Below are positions 1,279 through 7,497 of a stretch of 14,585 bases of DNA, piece after piece. The position numbers were made by a program, and so were the translations under genes. The notes under the pieces are model-generated. The model ran no database searches and was not told the origin of the DNA. It saw only the letters and a list, made by a program, of their open reading frames with translations. Numbering within the stretch: position 1 is the first letter of the stretch; each line of letters starts with the position of its first letter. Location of the stretch: the UHGV virus genome UHGV-0166592, one strand, 5' to 3'. The stretch comes from a virus.

Positions 1279-2442
1279 TTACGCCTTCTTTATATCCTCC
1301 ATAATTCCAGAGTGGGACATATTTGGGACATTATCACCAAAAATGTCGTCTATTTTCCTCGCATGCTCTGTCAAATGATTAGGCGCAAGGTGAGCATACC
1401 TACGAACCATTTCTATGGACTCCCATCCGCCCATTTCCTGAAGCACTGATAATGGGACGCCTGACTGAATCAGCCAGCTTGCCCAGGTGTGTCTGAGGTC
1501 ATGGAAACGGAAATCTTCAATTCCTGCACGACGACAAGCTGATAGCCATGATGTCTTGCTGTCGATGCGCATCTTCCTGACCGCAGGCGTTGATGTTCCA
1601 TCTGCTCGCTTAGCCGCCTTGGTATGTACAAACACCCATTTGTGATGCTTGCCTATTTGATCACGCAACACTTTACAGGCGGTATCGTTCAGCGCCACAC
1701 CAATGGCGCGGTTTGATTTGCTCTCTTCTGGATTCACCCAGGCAACTCGTCGCTGCATGTCGATTTGTTGCCATTCCAGATTTATGATGTTCGACTTTCT
1801 CAGACCAGTTGCCAGCGCAAACTTGACGACAGATTTCAGTGGTTCGGGGCACTCATCAATAAGGCGTTTTGCTTCCTCCTTTTCCAGCCATCTGACTCGC
1901 TTGTTTCTGACCGCTGGTATCTTGATGACAGGCGCTTTTTCCAGCCACTTCCAGTCGCGTTCTGCAGCACGGAGAATGGCCTTTATCATGGCAAGATGCT
2001 TTGCCTTTGTCTGAGTTGATACTGGCTTTGGTTCATAAACAGGCGGTTCTTTACCTTTCCTGATGGCGGCCCGAACTTTCTGTTTCCATATTTCTTTCGT
2101 CTTTCTGTTATGCATTCTGCTTACAGCAGAGTAAATCTTTGCCTCCGAGATATCTTTAAGCCTTATACCCTCAAAATGTTCAAGCCAGAACTCAATCCGG
2201 CTTTTATCTGAATCGAGAGATTTTTTATCAGCCTTTTCCTCAAGCCATCTTAGGCAGGCCTCTTCAAAAGTGACATCAGGTAAATCCCCTAGCTTTTCTA
2301 CTCGCCAGAGTTCTGCTTTTCGCTTGTCGTGCAACTCCTGAGCTTGCCGCTTGTCCTTTGTGCCAAGAGATTCCTTAATTCGTTTCCCGCCCGGGAGCGA
2401 ATACGAGGCATACCATATTTCATTTCTGCGGAAGAGTGACAT
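1279..2442 (-). CDS. int: Tyrosine-type site-specific integrase (lambdoid, IntD-like)
   Basis: 387-aa ORF with the C-terminal catalytic region [39 protein letters not shown] (R..H..R..Y signature of tyrosine recombinases). The N-terminus [31 protein letters not shown] matches my recollection of DLP12 IntD. RBS GAGGAAAG precedes the ATG at 2442. Confidence 0.95.
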
Positions 2443-2669
2443 TTTCTTTCCTCTGTTATGCCATCACCCGCGCTCACCTGGACAGTATGCAGCGGAGACT
2501 GAAGAGCCGCAATGCAGGCTTGTCGTGTTGTGAGGTAAGGAGATTTATTCTTAGTGGGATCTTTACGTGTTGCCTGAAGACGCCCTGTGCGTATCCAGTT
2601 AATGGCAGTCGGTCTGGATATCTTGAGAAAATGACAGGCCTCATCGAGTGTGAGGCTGTATGGCTCCAT
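2298..2669 (-). CDS. xis: Excisionase-family DNA-binding protein (Xis/AlpA-like HTH)
   Basis: Start chosen at the internal ATG 2669..2667 ([37 protein letters not shown]...), preceded by GAGGTG and overlapping the upstream stop as TAATG. The reading frame has no stop until 2298, so it runs 145 bp into int in another frame; the true C-terminus is uncertain. Confidence 0.55.
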
Positions 2670-2974
2670 TATTTCACCTCTTGTTGTGACATTGTTGAAA
2701 AATGGATACCAGCTCGTTGCTGCCAGACGATCCAACCGAGAGTCATATCCCATGCCATGTATTCGTTATCGCCGTTTTTTGCTCTCCGACGATCTACTAA
2801 GTCACCGAAACGCTTTTCCATGAATAATTCATAAGCTTCGCGTTCATCTGGTTCTACTTCCAGAGATAGGAGTGCGATTTCATAAGCACGGCGCTCAATA
2901 TCGTCTCGCACGTCAAGGCTGCTGATACGCTCTTTAATTTCTTTAATCAGTTCTTTGTCGGTAAAAGTGGTCAT
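2669..2974 (-). CDS. YfdT-like prophage protein, function unknown
   Basis: 101-aa ORF, translationally coupled at both ends (TAATG overlaps). The length and position match my recollection of the CPS-53 yfdP-yfdT block (YfdT is 101 aa). Confidence 0.65.
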   Translation of the reverse strand: MTTFTDKELIKEIKERISSLDVRDDIERRAYEIALLSLEVEPDEREAYELFMEKRFGDLVDRRRAKNGDNEYMAWDMTLGWIVWQQRAGIHFSTMSQQEVK

Positions 2975-3336
2975 TATGCTCCAGCCTCCGGTGCTTTTGG
3001 CATTACTGCCCAGTGAGTGATATTGACGTTTTCAAGGTCCCCGACCTGAAATGTCCACTGCCATTCTCCGGTTTCTTTTTGTCCCCAGGTGTACCAGAGA
3101 GAACGCCAGCCAATCAGCCAGCCTTCTCCATTAGCATCAAATAACAGAACACTTTCATTTGCTGGCGGCAGTTCAGCTGACACTGGTATTACTTTGTTTT
3201 CCAGTGCTGTACATTTAGCTTCAAGCGCATCGAATTTACGTACCAGGTATTCAGCATCTGTTTCATTCACTTTCAGATCTCGCGGTACACATCTCCCACG
3301 AAGAAACCCTTCCATTTCGAAAACATTCATGCGCAT
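2974..3336 (-). CDS. YfdS-like protein (DUF551-like C-terminus)
   Basis: 120-aa ORF. The C-terminal ...NITHWAVMPKAPEA resembles the W-x-P-x-P end I associate with DUF551 phage proteins. Its start overlaps the stop of the upstream HD-domain gene. Confidence 0.65.
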   Translation of the reverse strand: MRMNVFEMEGFLRGRCVPRDLKVNETDAEYLVRKFDALEAKCTALENKVIPVSAELPPANESVLLFDANGEGWLIGWRSLWYTWGQKETGEWQWTFQVGDLENVNITHWAVMPKAPEAGA

Positions 3337-3990: not shown

Positions 3991-4815
3991 TCAGGCGGTG
4001 AAAGTACCAATAAAGGTTTCTACTTTGCTGTCTTTGAATTTCTCAACAAGCAGATCACGAAATTCGTTAGCCATTTCTTCCTGCACCGCTTCCAGCTGAA
4101 TAATGCGCAGAACCAGTACAGGACGATCGCCAGTGATAATGCTGAGGCGTAATTTAAACGGACGTTCTTTCAGACCTTCAAACGGAACGCATTTAAATTC
4201 AAATGCCACTGGCATAATGTCTTTGGTCTTCGCTTCGACAGACTCCATCAGGGAGCGTTTGCCGCTGAAGTCATTATCTTCAAAATCAGCGGTCTGGTTT
4301 GCTTCAATCGTGATTTTACGGACTGCCGCAGCCGCTTTTGTTGCTTGAATGGCGTCACCATTAGCATCAAAGCCCACAAGGTAGTCGGCCCAGTCTTCGA
4401 TCCATTCTGCCAGTGACTTCTGGGAGTTACGCTCGCCGTTAACAGACAACAGAGCAGAGAACGGTGCTGTCTTTTTCAGTTTGAGAGTGGCAGTGTTATC
4501 TGCGTGACCTGGTTCATCAATAGTACCCAGGTTAAGCACACTGACGGCTCGCATATTATCGGCATCGATAAAGCAGCGGGTGCCTTCATCTGCAAGATCT
4601 TTAGAATAACGGGTAAAGTCATCGATGCTGGCAGTGGAAAGCGCACCACGGAAACGGAAGCGATTTAAATTAAATTTTTCCAGATCATGAATGCGGAAAT
4701 TCTCAGGCAATGCCACAGCATCGGCACCAATCTTACTGATAATTTCATTAACACCCTGAGCAGAAATAAGGGCATGGATTTGATTAATTGCGGTTGCGTC
4801 TAAGTTCTGAGACAT
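3991..4815 (-). CDS. yfdQ: YfdQ-like protein (DUF2303-type), function unknown
   Basis: 274-aa ORF with RBS GAGGA 7 nt upstream of ATG 4815; the length and translation fit my recollection of CPS-53 YfdQ. Confidence 0.75.
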
Positions 4816-4880
4816 AATAAGTCCTCACTATATAAAGATATTCAGTGATGAGATAAATAATCAGTTTATTAAGAACGATA

Positions 4881-5243
4881 TTAATGACCTGCTGCGCGTA
4901 GTTTTCCGTCAGGTTCACCGGCAAGAGTCAGTAATTGTCCCTGGTCTTCCTGCAGAATAGTCAGGCGACCACCGCGATTGACATACATCGGCGTTTCGGT
5001 GGTGTCTTCTTCGGAAATTTTCCCGCGGTTAGTTGGGCGAACATATGAGAGTTTGTGTTTGATTTTCACACGGTTCTCATCAAACGGTTCGATTTCCAGA
5101 TTGAGTGAGACCTTCCCTTTGGTTTTCGTGTTCATCACACCGGAAGCGACCTCACTGAGAACTGCGCCGATTTTGGTTTCAAATACGCCGCCGTCCAGCT
5201 CCCCGATAAATGCCTGCACATCAGTACTGCGTTCGCTAGCCAT
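4881..5243 (-). CDS. YfdP-like protein, function unknown
   Basis: Start placed at ATG 5243..5241 (MASERSTDVQAFIGELDGG...), which has a strong RBS GAGGAG 6 nt upstream and gives 120 aa. The upstream extension of the ORF track to 5408 lacks an RBS. Confidence 0.65.
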   Translation of the reverse strand: MASERSTDVQAFIGELDGGVFETKIGAVLSEVASGVMNTKTKGKVSLNLEIEPFDENRVKIKHKLSYVRPTNRGKISEEDTTETPMYVNRGGRLTILQEDQGQLLTLAGEPDGKLRAAGH

Positions 5244-5292
5244 TTTGCTGCTCCTCATCATATCGACCCTGCAAGGTCGGTTGGTTTCTCCA

Positions 5293-5379
5293 CAAAACAG
5301 AGAAGAACACCTGCGGTGGCAGCCGCCCGGATGGATTGGGTTATGAGCCCGTCGTCCGGTGATGCTCTTCTCTGTTTTG
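5293..5379. repeat. Long inverted repeat: 14-bp arms CAAAACAGAGAAGA / TCTTCTCTGTTTTG separated by 59 nt
   Basis: Arms 5293..5306 and 5366..5379 are exact reverse complements. It lies in the 5' leader of the yfdP-like gene on the minus strand. Confidence 0.75.
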
Positions 5380-5380
5380 C

Positions 5381-5432
5381 AAAAAAGGACGGTACCAGCC
5401 GGAAGCAAGGGTACAAACTGGTACCGCCAGGA
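5381..5432 (-). terminator. Candidate intrinsic terminator in the left-operon leader
   Basis: On the minus-strand RNA a 9-bp stem (CGGUACCAG / CUGGUACCG, arms 5418..5426 and 5390..5398, extendable to 11 bp with one G-U pair) is followed by UCC and then UUUUUU (complement of 5381..5386). The 19-nt loop is larger than typical. Confidence 0.4.
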
Positions 5433-5645
5433 CTACACACAGCATAAAGTTGTGGTGCCGGGTGCCTCCCGGTGCCTGGCGAAGGTTGCACACCAGGCGG
5501 GTGGGTATCCACAGAAGGTCGACTGTCAGCCTCAACCTTAACCCGCGTGCGCTGAGCCGCATTCACCACAACGCTAAGGATTCTCTCTGGTTGAAAATAC
5601 TTAGCTGTTATGTGCCTGCTTTTAGCCACATCAGGCGAGGTGGAC

Positions 5646-5697
5646 CTGGTTATTCCCCAACAACAAGGATTCGGTTAATCTGGTTATCCCCAACAAC
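5646..5697 (+). repeat. Two direct repeats CTGGTTAT(T)CCCCAACAAC upstream of the 144-aa gene
   Basis: Copies at 5646..5664 and 5680..5697 are identical except for one extra T and are 34 bp apart. They end 16 nt before the ATG at 5713 and are a candidate regulator-binding site. Confidence 0.6.
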
Positions 5698-5712
5698 GCA
5701 AAAGGAAAAGAA

Positions 5713-6147
5713 ATGTCCGGTAATATCTACACGCTGTACAAATCCCACTGTGAAAATGTTGGAAAGTATCGGGGCATTGAAATCAGTGGGGTAGTGTCAT
5801 CAGTCGAAATAAGCAAAGTGGAATCAAGGGCAACATTACTTACTCTTCTGGACCTTGTCTTACATGAGCACCGGAAGAAATTCGGTACTCCCTATAATCA
5901 GTTGAATGGGAAAAAGGCTCTGGTTCACCTTATTCTGATGAAGCATCACTGGATGCCAAAACAGATTAATGAGATGAAATTTGATGAACTTCTTCTTTCA
6001 ATTCAGGATGAACTCACACTTGATAAAATAAGCGTAACCGCCCAGAAATTTTTAGATTATCGAGACTGGAGATCACAAATTCATCACTTTGATGATTTTG
6101 ACGAAAATGAATGGGATCCTAATTTGTCTGCACAATATCTAAAGTAA
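5713..6147 (+). CDS. Hypothetical 144-aa protein; AT-rich cargo gene in reverse orientation
   Basis: 435-nt ORF in an AT-rich segment, with RBS AAAGGAAAAG before ATG 5713. A 144-codon ORF in AT-rich DNA is unlikely by chance. I recognise no family. Confidence 0.6.
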   Translation: MSGNIYTLYKSHCENVGKYRGIEISGVVSSVEISKVESRATLLTLLDLVLHEHRKKFGTPYNQLNGKKALVHLILMKHHWMPKQINEMKFDELLLSIQDELTLDKISVTAQKFLDYRDWRSQIHHFDDFDENEWDPNLSAQYLK

Positions 6148-6325
6148 CATCCTGTGATAAAACCGTGATTTCCTGATCCAGTTTTTTTAAGGAGTCTATT
6201 GTTTCCTGTCGATAAGACAGCACTTCACGAAGCTGGTTTATAGCTGCCAGCTTCTTTGTCATCCGCTCATAAATTTCCTCATCTGTGTAGCCAGGCGCGA
6301 CGATTTTGGGTTCTGTTTTGTGCAT
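6119..6325 (-). CDS. Hypothetical 68-aa protein; candidate first gene of the leftward early operon
   Basis: ATG 6325..6323 with RBS GAGGAG 7 nt upstream; codon usage looks E. coli-like. Its 3' end overlaps the 144-aa gene convergently by 29 nt. No arginine-rich motif, so it is not an obvious N homologue. Confidence 0.4.
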   Translation of the reverse strand: MHKTEPKIVAPGYTDEEIYERMTKKLAAINQLREVLSYRQETIDSLKKLDQEITVLSQDVTLDIVQTN

Positions 6326-6370
6326 TTCACATCTCCTCAAGTTATCAGTTACTTGTTGATGGGGACCAGA

Positions 6371-6383
6371 TTGTTAAAGAGCT
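6371..6383 (-). promoter_or_regulatory. boxA-like antitermination element (minus-strand RNA AGCUCUUUAACAA)
   Basis: The 12-mer GCTCTTTAACAA on the minus strand is identical to the rrn/consensus boxA core as I recall it (TGCTCTTTAACAA). It lies directly 3' of a hairpin and 45 nt upstream of the RBS of the 68-aa ORF. Confidence 0.45.
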
Positions 6384-6410
6384 AAGCGTCCTGTAGGGCG
6401 CTTTTTTGTT
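6384..6410 (+). terminator. Intrinsic terminator on the plus strand, downstream of the 144-aa gene
   Basis: Stem GCGTCC / GGGCGC (6386..6391 and 6396..6401, one G-U pair), loop TGTA, then TTTTTTGTT (6402..6410). The same hairpin on the minus-strand RNA sits immediately 5' of the boxA-like element. Confidence 0.6.
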
Positions 6411-6490
6411 GCTAACGAATCACCCTAGACTTTATATGCCCCAGGCGGCTACTTCGTGGGCGTCCTGCCTGTTCGTTATCTTTGATATAA

Positions 6491-6519
6491 AATCTAACTT
6501 AACTTAGTTATTATGGCAA
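6491..6519 (-). promoter_or_regulatory. Candidate pL-like promoter with overlapping operator-like palindrome
   Basis: On the minus strand: -35 TTGCCA (6519..6514), 17-nt spacer, -10 TAGATT (6496..6491). The near-palindrome CTAACTTAACTTAG (6494..6507) overlaps the spacer and -10 and resembles the OR palindrome at 7222..7235. Further CTTAG copies lie at 6539, 6552 and 6572. Confidence 0.35.
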
Positions 6520-6572
6520 GAGAAAACACCAAACTTTTCTTAGTTCGGTGCCTTAGTTAGAGAAGAGAGGTC

Positions 6573-7199
6573 TTAGAGTTCGTATTGAACTCCTTTGACT
6601 ACACCAATGATAAGGCAATTACCATTGATAGGGATGTTGGGATACCGAGGATTTAATGGCACTAAAAACTTTTGAGGGCCATCGATGACTAATTTTTTTA
6701 CTGTAGCTTCGTTTGTTCCATCAAGTCGAGCGATGACTATTTTTCCATGACGAGGTTCTGCATCTGGATCTACAATCACTGTTGCGCCTTCTGGTATTGT
6801 TGGGAGGCCATTAGGGTTAGTCATGGAGTCACCTTTAACCTCTAATGCAAATGAGTTATCACCAATCTTTAATGATGTATCTACCCACTTGTCCACTTCA
6901 CTAAACACTTCTGCTGCCCTGCACTCAGTAAACTGCCCAGCCTGAACCCACGATATTACAGGAACTCTGCGCATGTTTGTGACGAGTTTGCCTTCAAACT
7001 CAGCACCATAAAGAATGTAATCTATTGACGTATTGAAGAACTTCGCTAATTTCGAAAGTGCCTCCCCACCAGGGGTATTGATGTCTTTCTCCCAGTACCC
7101 CACAGCAACGTCGCTTACTCCACAAAATTTACCCAATTCTTTCTGGGACGTTCCGGTAACTCTTCTCAGAGCTTTTATACGCTGACCAACCGTTTCCAT
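6573..7199 (-). CDS. cI: CI-type prophage repressor (N-terminal XRE-family HTH, C-terminal S24 LexA-like peptidase)
   Basis: 208-aa ORF. The N-terminus (QRIKALRRVTGTSQKELGKFCGVSDVAVGYWE) is an HTH; the C-terminus has the S24 Ser/Lys dyad context (GDSMTNP ... TVKKLVIDG). It is divergent from the cro-like gene. Confidence 0.9.
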   Translation of the reverse strand: METVGQRIKALRRVTGTSQKELGKFCGVSDVAVGYWEKDINTPGGEALSKLAKFFNTSIDYILYGAEFEGKLVTNMRRVPVISWVQAGQFTECRAAEVFSEVDKWVDTSLKIGDNSFALEVKGDSMTNPNGLPTIPEGATVIVDPDAEPRHGKIVIARLDGTNEATVKKLVIDGPQKFLVPLNPRYPNIPINGNCLIIGVVKGVQYEL

Positions 7200-7296
7200 A
7201 GGAGCACCATTTCTTGAATTGCTAAGTAATCTTAGTTTTTATTGACCAAAGATAGATTTGTAATTAGCATCTAATAAAACTTAGTTTGGAGGGCGT
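7200..7296. promoter_or_regulatory. Divergent cI/cro control region (OR-like) with operator palindromes
   Basis: 97-bp AT-rich interval between the divergent cI and cro starts. It contains the inverted repeat CTAAG-TAAT-CTTAG (7222..7235), the palindrome AAACT-T-AGTTT (7277..7287) and a candidate -35 TTGACC (7242..7247). Exact pR/pRM positions are not resolved. Confidence 0.6.
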
Positions 7297-7497
7297 ATGA
7301 CAACTGACGATATCGAAAGCTACTTCGGCAGTATTGAGAAAGTTGCTGCTTTTTTCGGCATAACAACTGAAGCCGTTTATCAGTGGCGAAACCGTCCGGG
7401 CCAGTTAATTCCAAAAGGACGTGCAGCAGAAGCTGCATATAGAACTTGCGGACGGTTGCCATTTAAACCTGAGCTTTATGAAAAATCTAATGGATAA
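7297..7497 (+). CDS. cro: Cro-like small HTH regulator (YdaS-type)
   Basis: 66-aa ORF divergent from cI, with RBS GGAGGG before ATG 7297. HTH-like segment GSIEKVAAFFGITTEAVYQWRNR. Confidence 0.8.
   Translation: MTTDDIESYFGSIEKVAAFFGITTEAVYQWRNRPGQLIPKGRAAEAAYRTCGRLPFKPELYEKSNG

What the first reader, a model, noticed from the sequence alone, without database searches (positions are those of the whole stretch)
5590..6420. Reverse-oriented AT-rich cargo gene with its own terminator inside the leftward early operon
The 144-aa ORF (5713..6147) is on the plus strand, opposite to every flanking early-left gene. It is clearly more AT-rich than its neighbours, is preceded by two direct repeats CTGGTTAT(T)CCCCAACAAC, and is followed 240 bp later by a strong plus-strand terminator (6384..6410). 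Its 3' end overlaps a convergent 68-aa ORF by 29 nt. This is the slot between the immunity region and the recombination-side genes, where lambdoid phages often carry exclusion or defence cargo. I recognise no family for the protein, so it is a candidate for an undescribed single-gene (or gene plus antisense partner) exclusion system.
Basis: partly seen in the sequence, partly recalled or inferred. Interest (0 to 1): 0.75.

Follow-up and report, generated by a model that had tools for sequence, protein, structure and literature searches.

The report
Reverse-oriented prophage cargo gene cassette
This is a real, swappable accessory gene of unknown function that sits backwards inside a prophage's early operon, in a conserved "frame" of flanking sequences that many related phages use to carry other small genes; it has not been shown to be a defence gene.

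Summary
The window is an SfIV/SfV/e14-like lambdoid prophage at tRNA-Thr. Segment 5644-6413 is a replaceable cassette between the predicted pL/cI region and the early-left genes. Related phages carry other genes there.

The 144-aa ORF is not family-less. It belongs to NCBIfam NF033230 (ECs1072 family) and PHROG 5286, both uncharacterised. It is under purifying selection (dN/dS 0.20). Its confident all-helical model has no match in PDB or BFVD, and it has no Pfam or PADLOC hit.

Homologues always lie antisense inside a lytic operon, in four different operon contexts. They are nearly always convergent with a YdfC-family small ORF. The 68-aa ORF here is that YdfC-family gene, but close YdfC relatives also pair with unrelated cargo, so it is not a cargo-specific antidote.

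The "two direct repeats" are a degenerate 34-nt duplication of a conserved, unannotated ~90-nt upstream element. That element precedes more than 20 unrelated reverse-oriented cargo genes.

Best reading: a lysogen-expressed moron in a "noncontiguous operon" layout, like phi80 TaiEcA/AtiEcA. An exclusion or defence role is plausible (about 0.3) but untested.

The parts
5379..5602 (-). STnc100/PasD-like prophage sRNA element in the conserved left flank. It borders the cassette and is not part of the cargo.
   Evidence: Rfam RF02076 matches full length (1-206 of 206) at 40.3 bits, below the gathering score of 47, E 1e-6. The same hit appears in SfV and phage Evi.
5609..5645 (+). Conserved upstream domain (TGTGCCTG..CCACaTCAGGCGaGGTGG) of the cargo 'frame'. 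In canonical copies it ends in TGGTATCTT, which looks like an extended -10.
   Evidence: Alignment A5 of 30 copies has invariant GCCTG, CAC.TCAG and GTGG. 81 of 112 viral-contig hits carry the extended element.
5639..5712 (+). Diverged 34-nt tandem duplication (5639-5672 and 5673-5712). It holds the two direct repeats (5646-5664, 5680-5697), a weak candidate -10 TAATCT (5676-5681) and the Shine-Dalgarno AAGGA (5702-5706).
   Evidence: Repeat family D4. The repeat core resembles the leader variant TCCCTACAACAAGGAGGA. The leader is unstructured, z = +2.05. The promoter score of 5.9 is no better than the shuffle median of 6.09.
5713..6147 (+). ECs1072-family cargo gene: 144 aa, soluble, all-helical.
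   Evidence: NF033230 at 1.7e-46 and PHROG 5286 at 1.5e-90. dN/dS is 0.20 against the E. albertii allele. AF2 model has pLDDT 86.5 and pTM 0.84.
6119..6325 (-). YdfC-family small gene (68 aa). It is the first ORF of the predicted pL operon and converges on the cargo with a 29-nt overlap.
   Evidence: 39% identical to annotated ydfC of PPompW and Evi-type phages. PHROG 1744. A YdfC-like ORF converges on an ECs1072 homologue in 33 of 36 loci.
6352..6372 (-). Third, inverted copy of the repeat core (AATCTGGTCCCCATCAACAAG), 27-47 nt upstream of the ydfC-like start codon.
   Evidence: Inverted repeats I4 and I8; motif count against shuffles.
6384..6410 (+). Plus-strand intrinsic terminator. It would stop cargo transcription before pL/oL and cI, and it lies in the pL leader.
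   Evidence: The E. albertii copy has a C-to-U change that keeps the pair as G.U only in plus-strand RNA (read from the sequences). On the minus strand the tail is AGCTCTTTAAC, which has no U-run.
6414..6477 (.). Conserved right boundary of the swappable segment. It is the 5' leader of the predicted pL transcript.
   Evidence: Homology with SfV resumes at 6414-6477. The same block appears in Yersinia and Pectobacterium loci.
6484..6545 (-). Predicted pL (TTGCCA-17-TAGATT, 6519..6491) with operator-like repeats shared with the cI/cro intergenic region.
   Evidence: Promoter scan. Repeat families D1 and D3 link 6484-6545 with 7222-7286.

Best explanation
Region 5644-6413 is one allele of a swappable accessory-gene cassette, a 'moron'. 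It sits in a conserved frame between the prophage's predicted pL/cI immunity region and its early-left genes.

**The frame**
- On the left: an upstream promoter/leader element. Here it is degenerate and partly duplicated, which produces the two direct repeats.
- On the right: a convergent YdfC-family small gene that belongs to the pL operon, followed by a one-way plus-strand terminator.

**The cargo**
The cargo is a 144-aa soluble all-helical protein of the uncharacterised ECs1072 family.

**Inferred operation**
- In the lysogen, pL is repressed. The cargo is then transcribed rightward from its own weak promoter and stops at 6384-6410 before reaching pL and cI.
- On induction, pL transcription runs antisense through the cargo and through the 29-nt overlap, which would damp cargo expression.
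- This is the 'noncontiguous operon' logic shown experimentally for phi80 TaiEcA/AtiEcA.

**Protein function**
The biochemical activity is unknown. My best single guess is a cytoplasmic, lysogen-expressed factor that acts on incoming phages (superinfection exclusion or abortive infection) by binding a protein or nucleic acid.

**Sub-confidences**
- Cassette, moron and antisense architecture: about 0.85.
- Expressed mainly in the lysogen: about 0.6.
- Anti-phage role: about 0.3.
For: **Shown**
- The slot is variable, with sharp homology breaks at 5643 and 6414.
- The slot flanks occur in 1945 of 5426 complete E. coli genomes. The gene itself occurs in 422.
- The protein is real. dN/dS is 0.20 with dS 0.86 against an E. 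albertii allele. That allele's left flank and leader are 97-98% identical.
- The exhaustive profile search gives 76 cluster representatives, mostly stand-alone and about 145-155 aa.
- Homologues are antisense inside lytic operons in four contexts:
  - the slot between cI and the early-left genes;
  - the early-right operon between cII and O in Sakai Sp4;
  - between Q and the holin in Serratia, ST64B and Klebsiella phage KPP5665-2;
  - a P2-like early operon in Pantoea.
- A convergent YdfC-like ORF is present in 33 of 36 loci.
- The same upstream element precedes lone reverse-oriented genes. The upstream neighbour is on the opposite strand in 57 of 68 loci and the downstream neighbour in 68 of 74.
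- The plus-strand terminator is present.

**Weak or indirect**
- SieB and a BRCT-domain gene are stacked beside homologues in the same orientation.
- A Sakai microarray lists ECs1072 among genes whose signal changes with growth phase, by -2.13 (PMC2241611).
- Precedent for the layout and its regulation: PMC11364771, section 13.
Against: - No convincing sigma-70 promoter is predicted upstream in this window. The best candidate, TTCCCC-17-TAATCT, scores at the shuffle median. The canonical TGGTATCTT of the element is disrupted here.
- There is no expression data for this allele.
- There is no similarity to any known defence protein, by PADLOC, Pfam, PDB or BFVD.
- Most other cargo in the same frame has no defence link. 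It includes a BssS family member, DUF1883, a Zn-ribbon protein and orphans.
- YdfC does not co-vary with cargo type. A cognate immunity partner like Ati is therefore not supported.
Confidence: 0.45

Rival explanations
1. Lysogenic-conversion or host-physiology factor. The ECs1072 protein modulates a host process such as regulation, stress response or biofilm formation rather than acting on phages. It would be one of many small 'moron' proteins delivered by the same frame.
For: - Cargo behind the same leader includes a BssS-family protein (Pfam BssS family) and DUF1883. Most of the rest are orphans, and only SieB is a known exclusion protein.
- No family member gives a meaningful PADLOC hit.
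- The allele is very highly conserved in E. coli: 316 genomes at 99% nt identity or above. That is not the pattern expected under arms-race diversification.
- dN/dS is 0.20.
Against: - No homology or fold match points to any host pathway.
- The family is found only in temperate-phage contexts, next to immunity regions.
Confidence: 0.22
2. Prophage self-regulation. The cargo protein, or simply its convergent transcription, tunes the prophage's own lytic operon. It would act as a lock on pL, pR or pR' read-through or on induction timing, with YdfC as part of that circuit.
For: - The gene is always antisense inside a lytic operon, whichever operon that is.
- It almost always overlaps a YdfC-like ORF at the 3' end.
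- Q expression lowered TaiEcA levels in the phi80 precedent.
Against: - Many related phages carry a different cargo in the slot, or no reverse-oriented cargo at all. mEp460 has only a minus-strand gene there.
- Unrelated proteins occupy the same frame, so the protein itself is unlikely to be a core regulator.
- Purifying selection on the protein argues against a role for transcription alone.
Confidence: 0.13
3. Two-gene toxin/antidote or abortive-infection module. ECs1072 is the effector and the convergent YdfC-like protein is its cognate neutraliser, made only when the lytic operon fires.
For: - The pair is kept together in four different operon contexts and in several genera.
- The layout matches phi80 TaiEcA/AtiEcA.
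Against: - Closely related YdfC-like proteins (cluster 16) sit next to both ECs1072 and unrelated cargo.
- YdfC also occurs without ECs1072, in Evi and PPompW phages.
- Three ECs1072 loci have no YdfC hit: L021, L023 (where an IS1 follows the gene) and L035, which is only a weak family match.
- The arrangement is neither the co-directional type II layout nor a small hydrophobic type I toxin. The maximum 19-residue Kyte-Doolittle hydropathy is 0.84.
Confidence: 0.1
4. Chance ORF or decayed remnant with no function.
For: - No convincing promoter is predicted.
- The upstream element is degenerate in this allele.
Against: - dN/dS is 0.20 across dS 0.86.
- The family has 76 cluster representatives, mostly about 145-155 aa, with conserved R54, G66, A69, H72 and W134.
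- The AF2 model is confident.
- The ORF is intact in 416 E. coli genomes.
Confidence: 0.02

Closest known systems
phi80 TaiEcA/AtiEcA 'noncontiguous operon' (He et al. 2024, PMC11364771)
   Same: - A prophage gene is transcribed against a lytic operon that it interrupts.
- A small operon-sense gene lies next to it.
- The reverse gene is made in the lysogen and falls when the operon is driven.
- ECs1072 homologues also occur in the Q-controlled late region.
   Different: - There is no sequence relationship. phi80 is not among the tblastn hits.
- TaiEcA is 26 kDa; this protein is 17 kDa.
- No anti-phage phenotype is known here.
- The small neighbour (YdfC-like) is shared with unrelated cargo, so it is not shown to be a counter-defence.
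Classical lambdoid morons and exclusion genes next to the immunity region (lambda rexAB, P22/Rac sieB, HK97 gp15, BTP1 BstA)
   Same: - It is an accessory gene at the immunity region, present in some relatives and absent in others.
- Its base composition is atypical.
- It has its own terminator.
- SieB occupies the same slot beside a homologue.
   Different: - rexAB is co-transcribed with cI, and lambda sieB is co-directional with pL (from my own knowledge of those systems). This gene is antisense to the operon.
- No homology to any of them appears in Pfam or PADLOC.
NCBIfam NF033230 'ECs1072 family phage-associated protein' / PHROG 5286
   Same: Full-length membership well above the curated cutoff. 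All 47 aligned relatives match PHROG 5286.
   Different: Nothing differs. However, the family is a 'hypothetical equivalog' with no assigned function, and I found no paper on it.
YdfC of the Qin dicBF operon (E. coli K-12)
   Same: The 68-aa ORF shares the N-terminal EPxIIAPxYTDEELYEWM-type motif and 39% identity with annotated ydfC genes. It is a promoter-proximal gene of an early-left operon, as in dicBF (PMC5069750).
   Different: Here it overlaps an antisense cargo gene at its 3' end. The function of YdfC is itself unknown.

Membership tests
NCBIfam NF033230 (ECs1072 family) / PHROG 5286 | HMM score above the curated cutoff over the full length | tested here: met
   157.8 bits against a cutoff of 70, covering residues 4-144 on profile positions 2-142 of 142. 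PHROG 5286 at 1.5e-90, 1-144 of 144.
Moron (Juhala/Hendrix sense) | Present in some and absent in other closely related phages, at a sharp junction | tested here: met
   Homology to SfV breaks at 5643 and resumes at 6414. Related phages carry other cargo in the slot.
Moron (Juhala/Hendrix sense) | Own transcription terminator | tested here: met
   The plus-strand hairpin at 6384-6403 plus a T-run. This is a prediction only.
Moron (Juhala/Hendrix sense) | Own promoter, expressed from the repressed prophage | tested here: inconclusive
   The best sigma-70 candidate scores 5.9, equal to the shuffle median. Canonical copies of the element have TGnTATnnT, and Sakai has TATAAT at the same place. The only expression evidence is an indirect microarray listing of the Sakai homologue.
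Moron (Juhala/Hendrix sense) | Base composition different from neighbouring genes | tested here: met
   38.4% GC against 46-53% for the early-left genes. cI and cro are 43%.
Catalogued anti-phage defence systems (PADLOC-DB 2.0) | HMM match to a component of a known or candidate system | tested here: not met
   There are no hits for the protein or for the 68-aa ORF. Of 47 family members, only two give chance-level hits, with E of 0.015 or worse.
Defence/counter-defence noncontiguous operon (Tai/Ati type) | Reverse-oriented gene interrupting a lytic operon, with an adjacent small operon-sense gene | tested here: met
   Seen in the window map and in four operon contexts.
Defence/counter-defence noncontiguous operon (Tai/Ati type) | The small neighbour is a cognate partner specific to the reverse gene | tested here: not met
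   Closely related YdfC-like genes pair with ECs1072 and with unrelated cargo alike.
Defence/counter-defence noncontiguous operon (Tai/Ati type) | Anti-phage phenotype that the partner neutralises | not testable with these tools
   This needs cloning and phage challenge.
Toxin-antitoxin (type I or II) | Co-directional bicistron (type II), or a small hydrophobic toxin with an RNA antitoxin (type I) | tested here: not met
   The genes are convergent and both encode conserved proteins. The protein is hydrophilic, with GRAVY -0.47 and a maximum 19-residue hydropathy of 0.84.
Rfam RNA families (for the upstream element) | Covariance-model match | tested here: not met
   No Rfam 15 hit covers 5603-5712 or canonical copies of the element at E <= 1.

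The most novel reading that the evidence does not exclude
The conserved ~90-nt upstream element and the convergent YdfC-like gene together form a portable 'docking frame'. Temperate phages of Enterobacterales and Aeromonas would use it to insert and exchange lysogen-expressed genes antisense inside lytic operons.

On this reading the element is a new cis-regulatory unit: an extended -10 promoter plus a covarying stem at the Shine-Dalgarno sequence. It would couple cargo expression inversely to lytic transcription. ECs1072, the frame's commonest cargo, would be a new-fold anti-phage or phage-competition protein.
Probability: 0.22. Interest if true: 0.75.

Novelty: new member of a known kind. 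Interest (0 to 1): 0.5.

Why it matters
About 8% of complete E. coli genomes (422 of 5426) carry this exact gene. About 36% (1945 of 5426) carry the slot. The ECs1072 family has no known function, no detected homologue of known function and no recognisable fold.

The more useful outcome here is the frame rather than the single gene. The conserved upstream element, the YdfC-like gene and the terminator together mark dozens of small, uncharacterised, probably lysogen-expressed prophage genes in several genera.

If the frame really gives lysogen-specific expression that lytic transcription switches off, three things follow:
- it is a simple handle for finding prophage accessory, exclusion or conversion genes;
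- it is a natural example of antisense-coupled regulation;
- it supplies a ready set of candidates for phage-challenge screens.

Tried and rejected
**Function of the protein**
- Sequence homology found nothing. This covered Pfam for single proteins, Pfam on all 47 members, phmmer against PDB, and the 47-sequence profile against PDB.
- PADLOC found nothing for the protein or the family.
- Literature searches for ECs1072, WP_000016389, phrog_5286 and NF033230 returned only one microarray table.

**Partner gene**
- BLASTP between the E. coli and Serratia small ORFs found nothing. The relationship only appeared with an iterated HMM.
- That HMM drifted. It pulled in some non-YdfC ORFs, clusters 1-7, so pairing counts for non-ECs cargo are upper bounds.

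**Upstream leader and repeats**
- A structured 5' leader in the window is rejected. It is less structured than 199 of 200 shuffles.
- I considered CsrA or Hfq (ARN) binding motifs from the CA-rich repeats and AAGGA. Nothing tests this, so I dropped it.
- I considered an RfaH ops site inside CAGGCGG. The commonest variant lacks the essential T6, so I rejected it. This rests on my own knowledge of the ops consensus.
- RNAalifold on the leader alignment gave only an invariant GCCUG/CAGGC stem with no covariation.
- The strand on which the covarying stem acts could not be decided from G.U asymmetry.

**Other**
- Invertible segment or transposon, suggested by the inverted repeat copies: both orientations were never seen among hundreds of genomes and no invertase is nearby, so I rejected it.
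- The search for related loci with the 47-sequence alignment failed because it had no conserved 7-10 column stretch.
Full report
**1. Observation**

All the stated features are in the sequence.
- The 144-aa ORF is at 5713..6147 (+), with AAGGA six bases before the ATG.
- The 68-aa ORF (ATG at 6325, stop at 6119-6121, minus strand) overlaps it by 29 nt.
- The repeats CTGGTTAT(T)CCCCAACAAC are at 5646-5664 and 5680-5697.
- A plus-strand hairpin at 6384-6403 is followed by TTTTTTGT.
- The gene is 38.4% GC, against 46-53% for the early-left genes. cI and cro are also low, at 43%.

I add two observations. A third, inverted copy of the repeat core lies at 6352-6372, upstream of the 68-aa ORF. A second plus-strand hairpin lies at 6229-6254.

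**2. Context**

The window is an SfIV/SfV/e14-like lambdoid prophage integrated beside tRNA-Thr, downstream of proA. The map is:
- integrase at 1279..2442 (-);
- yfdT, yfdR, yfdQ and yfdP-like early-left genes, all on the minus strand;
- the cassette;
- an S24/HTH repressor at 6573..7199 (-);
- cro at 7297..7497 (+);
- ymfL and replication genes, on the plus strand.

A pL-like promoter, TTGCCA-17-TAGATT at 6519..6491 (-), sits among operator-like repeats shared with the cI/cro intergenic region. The 68-aa ORF is therefore the first ORF of the leftward operon, and the 144-aa gene lies antisense inside that operon.

**3. The slot is variable**

- Homology with SfV ends at 5643 and resumes at 6414-6477.
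- In that interval SfV has an 80-aa plus-strand ORF and orf33.
- PhiR29 has a 242-aa plus-strand gene.
- mEp460 has a 122-aa HTH gene on the minus strand.
- E. coli G1/2 has ECs1072 plus a BRCT-domain gene.
- Yersinia has an ECs1072 homologue plus SieB.
- The flanks occur in 1945 of 5426 complete E. coli genomes. This gene occurs in 422, nearly all at 95% nt identity or above.

**4. The protein**

- It belongs to NCBIfam NF033230 ('ECs1072 family phage-associated protein', a hypothetical equivalog) and PHROG 5286, which has no assigned function.
- A word-indexed search found only 14 clusters.
- An exhaustive profile search found 76 representatives at 50% clustering, mostly stand-alone proteins of about 145-155 aa.
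- Named sources are Escherichia, Salmonella, Yersinia, Pectobacterium, Proteus, Morganella, Pantoea, Serratia and Klebsiella phages.
- Conserved positions are L50, R54, L64, G66, A69 and H72, plus an invariant W134 in a C-terminal acidic ..EWDP motif.
- Against the E. albertii allele, dN is 0.169 and dS is 0.863, giving a ratio of 0.20.
- That allele's left flank and leader are 97-98% identical and its right side is 88-90% identical. This is a real protein under purifying selection, and its alleles are exchanged inside conserved flanks.
- It is hydrophilic, with pI 6.4 and no hydrophobic segment.
- AF2 with 17 sequences gives pLDDT 86.5 and pTM 0.84, all helical.
- There is no Pfam, PDB-sequence or PADLOC relationship.
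- I found no paper on the family beyond one microarray table.

**5. A consistent genomic habit**

Every homologue I could place lies antisense within a lytic transcription unit:
- between the repressor and the early-left genes (Yersinia, Pectobacterium, Proteus, E. albertii);
- between cII and the O-like replication gene in the early-right operon of Sakai Sp4, where ECs1072 is now tagged ECs_5703;
- between Q and the holin (Serratia, ST64B, Klebsiella phage KPP5665-2), where it is unannotated in the two phage records;
- inside the early operon of P2-like Pantoea prophages.

In 33 of 36 loci a YdfC-family ORF converges on it, usually overlapping its 3' end. The shared motif ..EPxI..(P/G)xY/L..EEL..W(M/L) is visible by eye in E. 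coli, Evi, Serratia, Yersinia, Pectobacterium, Proteus, Pantoea and Sakai. Many of those 36 loci are near-duplicates, so the independent evidence is the four contexts and about eight genera.

The 68-aa ORF is 39% identical to annotated ydfC genes. ydfC is a promoter-proximal gene of unknown function in the Qin dicBF operon (PMC5069750).

The pairing is not specific, however. Closely related YdfC-like proteins sit next to ECs1072 and also next to unrelated cargo: BssS-like, 164-aa, 78-aa and 65-aa proteins. YdfC also occurs without ECs1072.

**6. What the 'direct repeats' are**

Upstream of ECs1072 homologues there is a conserved element. It also lies upstream of other reverse-oriented cargo:
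- SfV's 80-aa ORF;
- Yersinia SieB;
- a 66-aa Zn-ribbon ORF in phage Evi that the GenBank record misses.

The element reads TGTGCCTG-N9-CCACCTCAGGCGGCGGTGGTATC. It is followed by a short stem-loop whose 3' arm runs into the Shine-Dalgarno sequence, then about 8 nt, then the start codon.

- An exact-pattern scan of IMG/VR gave 112 hits. 81 of them carry the extended element.
- Those hits are followed by 52 distinct proteins. ECs1072 is the commonest family, with 12 of them. Others include DUF1883, BssS, a Zn-ribbon protein, a two-TM protein and many orphans.
- The unit is typically a lone reverse gene next to a repressor/cro pair. The upstream neighbour is on the opposite strand in 57 of 68 loci and the downstream neighbour in 68 of 74.
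- It is present and unannotated in cultured phages of Aeromonas, Edwardsiella, Shigella (SfII), Yersinia and Klebsiella.
- No Rfam family matches it.
- The stem covaries: UCUUGG/CCAAGA, UCCUC/GAGGA, CCUCUGUU/AACAGAGG, CCUUUUA/UAAAAGG, GCUGG/CCAGC and CUGUGGUUC/GAACCAGAG.
- The motif TGnTATnnT is kept in all variants, and Sakai has TATAAT there.

The last point suggests an extended -10 promoter. I could not decide whether the stem acts in the cargo mRNA, in the antisense lytic transcript, or as DNA.

In this window the element is degenerate. GGTGG is followed by ACCTGGTTATTCC instead of TATC. The loop-plus-SD part (CCCCAACAACAAGGA; compare the variant TCCCTACAACAAGGAGGA) is duplicated with a 34-nt period. 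The stem is lost (-2 kcal/mol) and the leader is unstructured. The best promoter candidate, TTCCCC-17-TAATCT at 5653/5676, is no better than chance.

**7. Terminator**

The hairpin at 6384-6403 has its U-run only on the plus strand. The E. albertii copy carries a C-to-U change that keeps the pair as G.U only in plus-strand RNA. It lies in the predicted pL leader and would let pL transcripts pass. I infer that it insulates pL/oL and cI from cargo read-through.

**8. How it most likely works**

Shown:
- the cassette is swappable;
- the protein is conserved;
- the gene is placed antisense in lytic operons;
- it converges on and overlaps a YdfC-like gene;
- it has a plus-strand terminator.

Inferred:
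- the gene is transcribed in the lysogen while the lytic operon is silent;
- it is damped by convergent lytic transcription after induction.

This behaviour was shown experimentally for phi80 TaiEcA, which interrupts the Q-controlled operon next to the small AtiEcA (PMC11364771). The molecular activity of ECs1072 is unknown. An exclusion or abortive-infection role is the best single guess, because of the slot, the SieB neighbour and the Tai precedent. I put it at only about 0.3. Nothing links the protein to known defences, and most co-framed cargo looks like miscellaneous small accessory proteins.

**9. Rivals**

- Host-physiology or conversion factor: 0.22.
- Prophage self-regulation through the antisense arrangement: 0.13.
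- Effector/antidote pair with YdfC: 0.10, weakened.
- Chance ORF: 0.02, excluded.

**10. Novelty and score**

The family is already catalogued but uncharacterised. The arrangement is a moron in a noncontiguous-operon layout, which is a known kind. What is new here:
- the family-wide rule that the gene lies antisense within a lytic operon;
- the near-constant YdfC neighbour;
- the conserved, unannotated upstream element shared by many cargo families.

These make the locus a reasonable experimental target but not a demonstrated new system. Interest is 0.5.

Noticed in passing
window 5609-5712; canonical copies at e.g. L029:2896-2981, L026:7545-7630, L136:2500-2580, L137:2500-2575: A conserved, unannotated ~90-nt element: TGTGCCTG..CCACCTCAGGCGGCGGTGGTATC, then a covarying stem, then the Shine-Dalgarno sequence. 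It precedes more than 20 unrelated small reverse-oriented genes next to the immunity region of temperate phages from Escherichia to Aeromonas. It is not in Rfam 15. GCCUG/CAGGC and CCACC/GGUGG could form an H-type pseudoknot, but both are invariant, so there is no covariation test.
   Followed up: partly
window 5379-5602 (-): A full-length but sub-threshold match to the prophage sRNA STnc100 (RF02076): 40.3 bits against a gathering score of 47, E 1e-6. It lies in the conserved left flank. The 123-aa ORF at 5258..5629 (-) and the RefSeq 'frameshifted hypothetical protein' there are probably not coding. The same element follows DicF in phage Evi (L019 4248-4433).
   Followed up: partly
window 6414-6477: A block conserved between heteroimmune phages of E. 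coli, Shigella, Yersinia and Pectobacterium (..ATGCCCCAGGCGGCTACTTCGTGGGCGTCCTGCCTGTT..), just downstream of the predicted pL. It shares a CAGGCGG core with the cargo upstream element. It could be a nut/put-like or processing site in the pL leader.
   Followed up: no
L019 (phage Evi) 2708-2908 (-): The annotated plus-strand ORF at 2573..2929 is probably wrong. The opposite strand encodes a 66-aa CxxC..CxxC zinc-ribbon protein behind a canonical copy of the upstream element, divergent from ydfC.
   Followed up: partly
L009 (ST64B) 2845-3279 and L010 (KPP5665-2) 2818-3291: ECs1072-family genes are unannotated in these GenBank phage records. They lie between Q and the holin, antisense to sb50 and GP45, which are YdfC-like.
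   Followed up: partly
window 6183-6189 and the equivalent position in Yersinia loci (L011-L013): A run of seven T on the plus strand, 36 nt after the cargo stop codon. On the other strand it encodes the conserved Lys-Lys of the YdfC-like ORF. It may be a second, embedded stop signal for the cargo transcript.
   Followed up: no
L022 (E. coli G1/2) 4379-5269 (+): A 296-aa BRCT-domain protein is stacked after ECs1072 in the same slot. It partially matches the PADLOC candidate system PDC-S48 (E 2.4e-7).
   Followed up: no
L003 (SfV) 5832-6020: Strong Rfam hits to isrK (64 bits) and the C4 antisense RNA (82 bits) lie inside SfV 'orf37, immunity region'. This indicates a P1/P7-type c4-ant secondary immunity module that the corresponding stretch of this window does not have.
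   Followed up: no
protein P0004 (163 aa); L023 3996-4693: A chimeric protein joins residues 1-118 of ECs1072 to a tail-fibre-assembly (PF02413) C-terminus. Separately, an IS1 sits immediately after the gene in strain AR_0369 and truncates the prophage.
   Followed up: no
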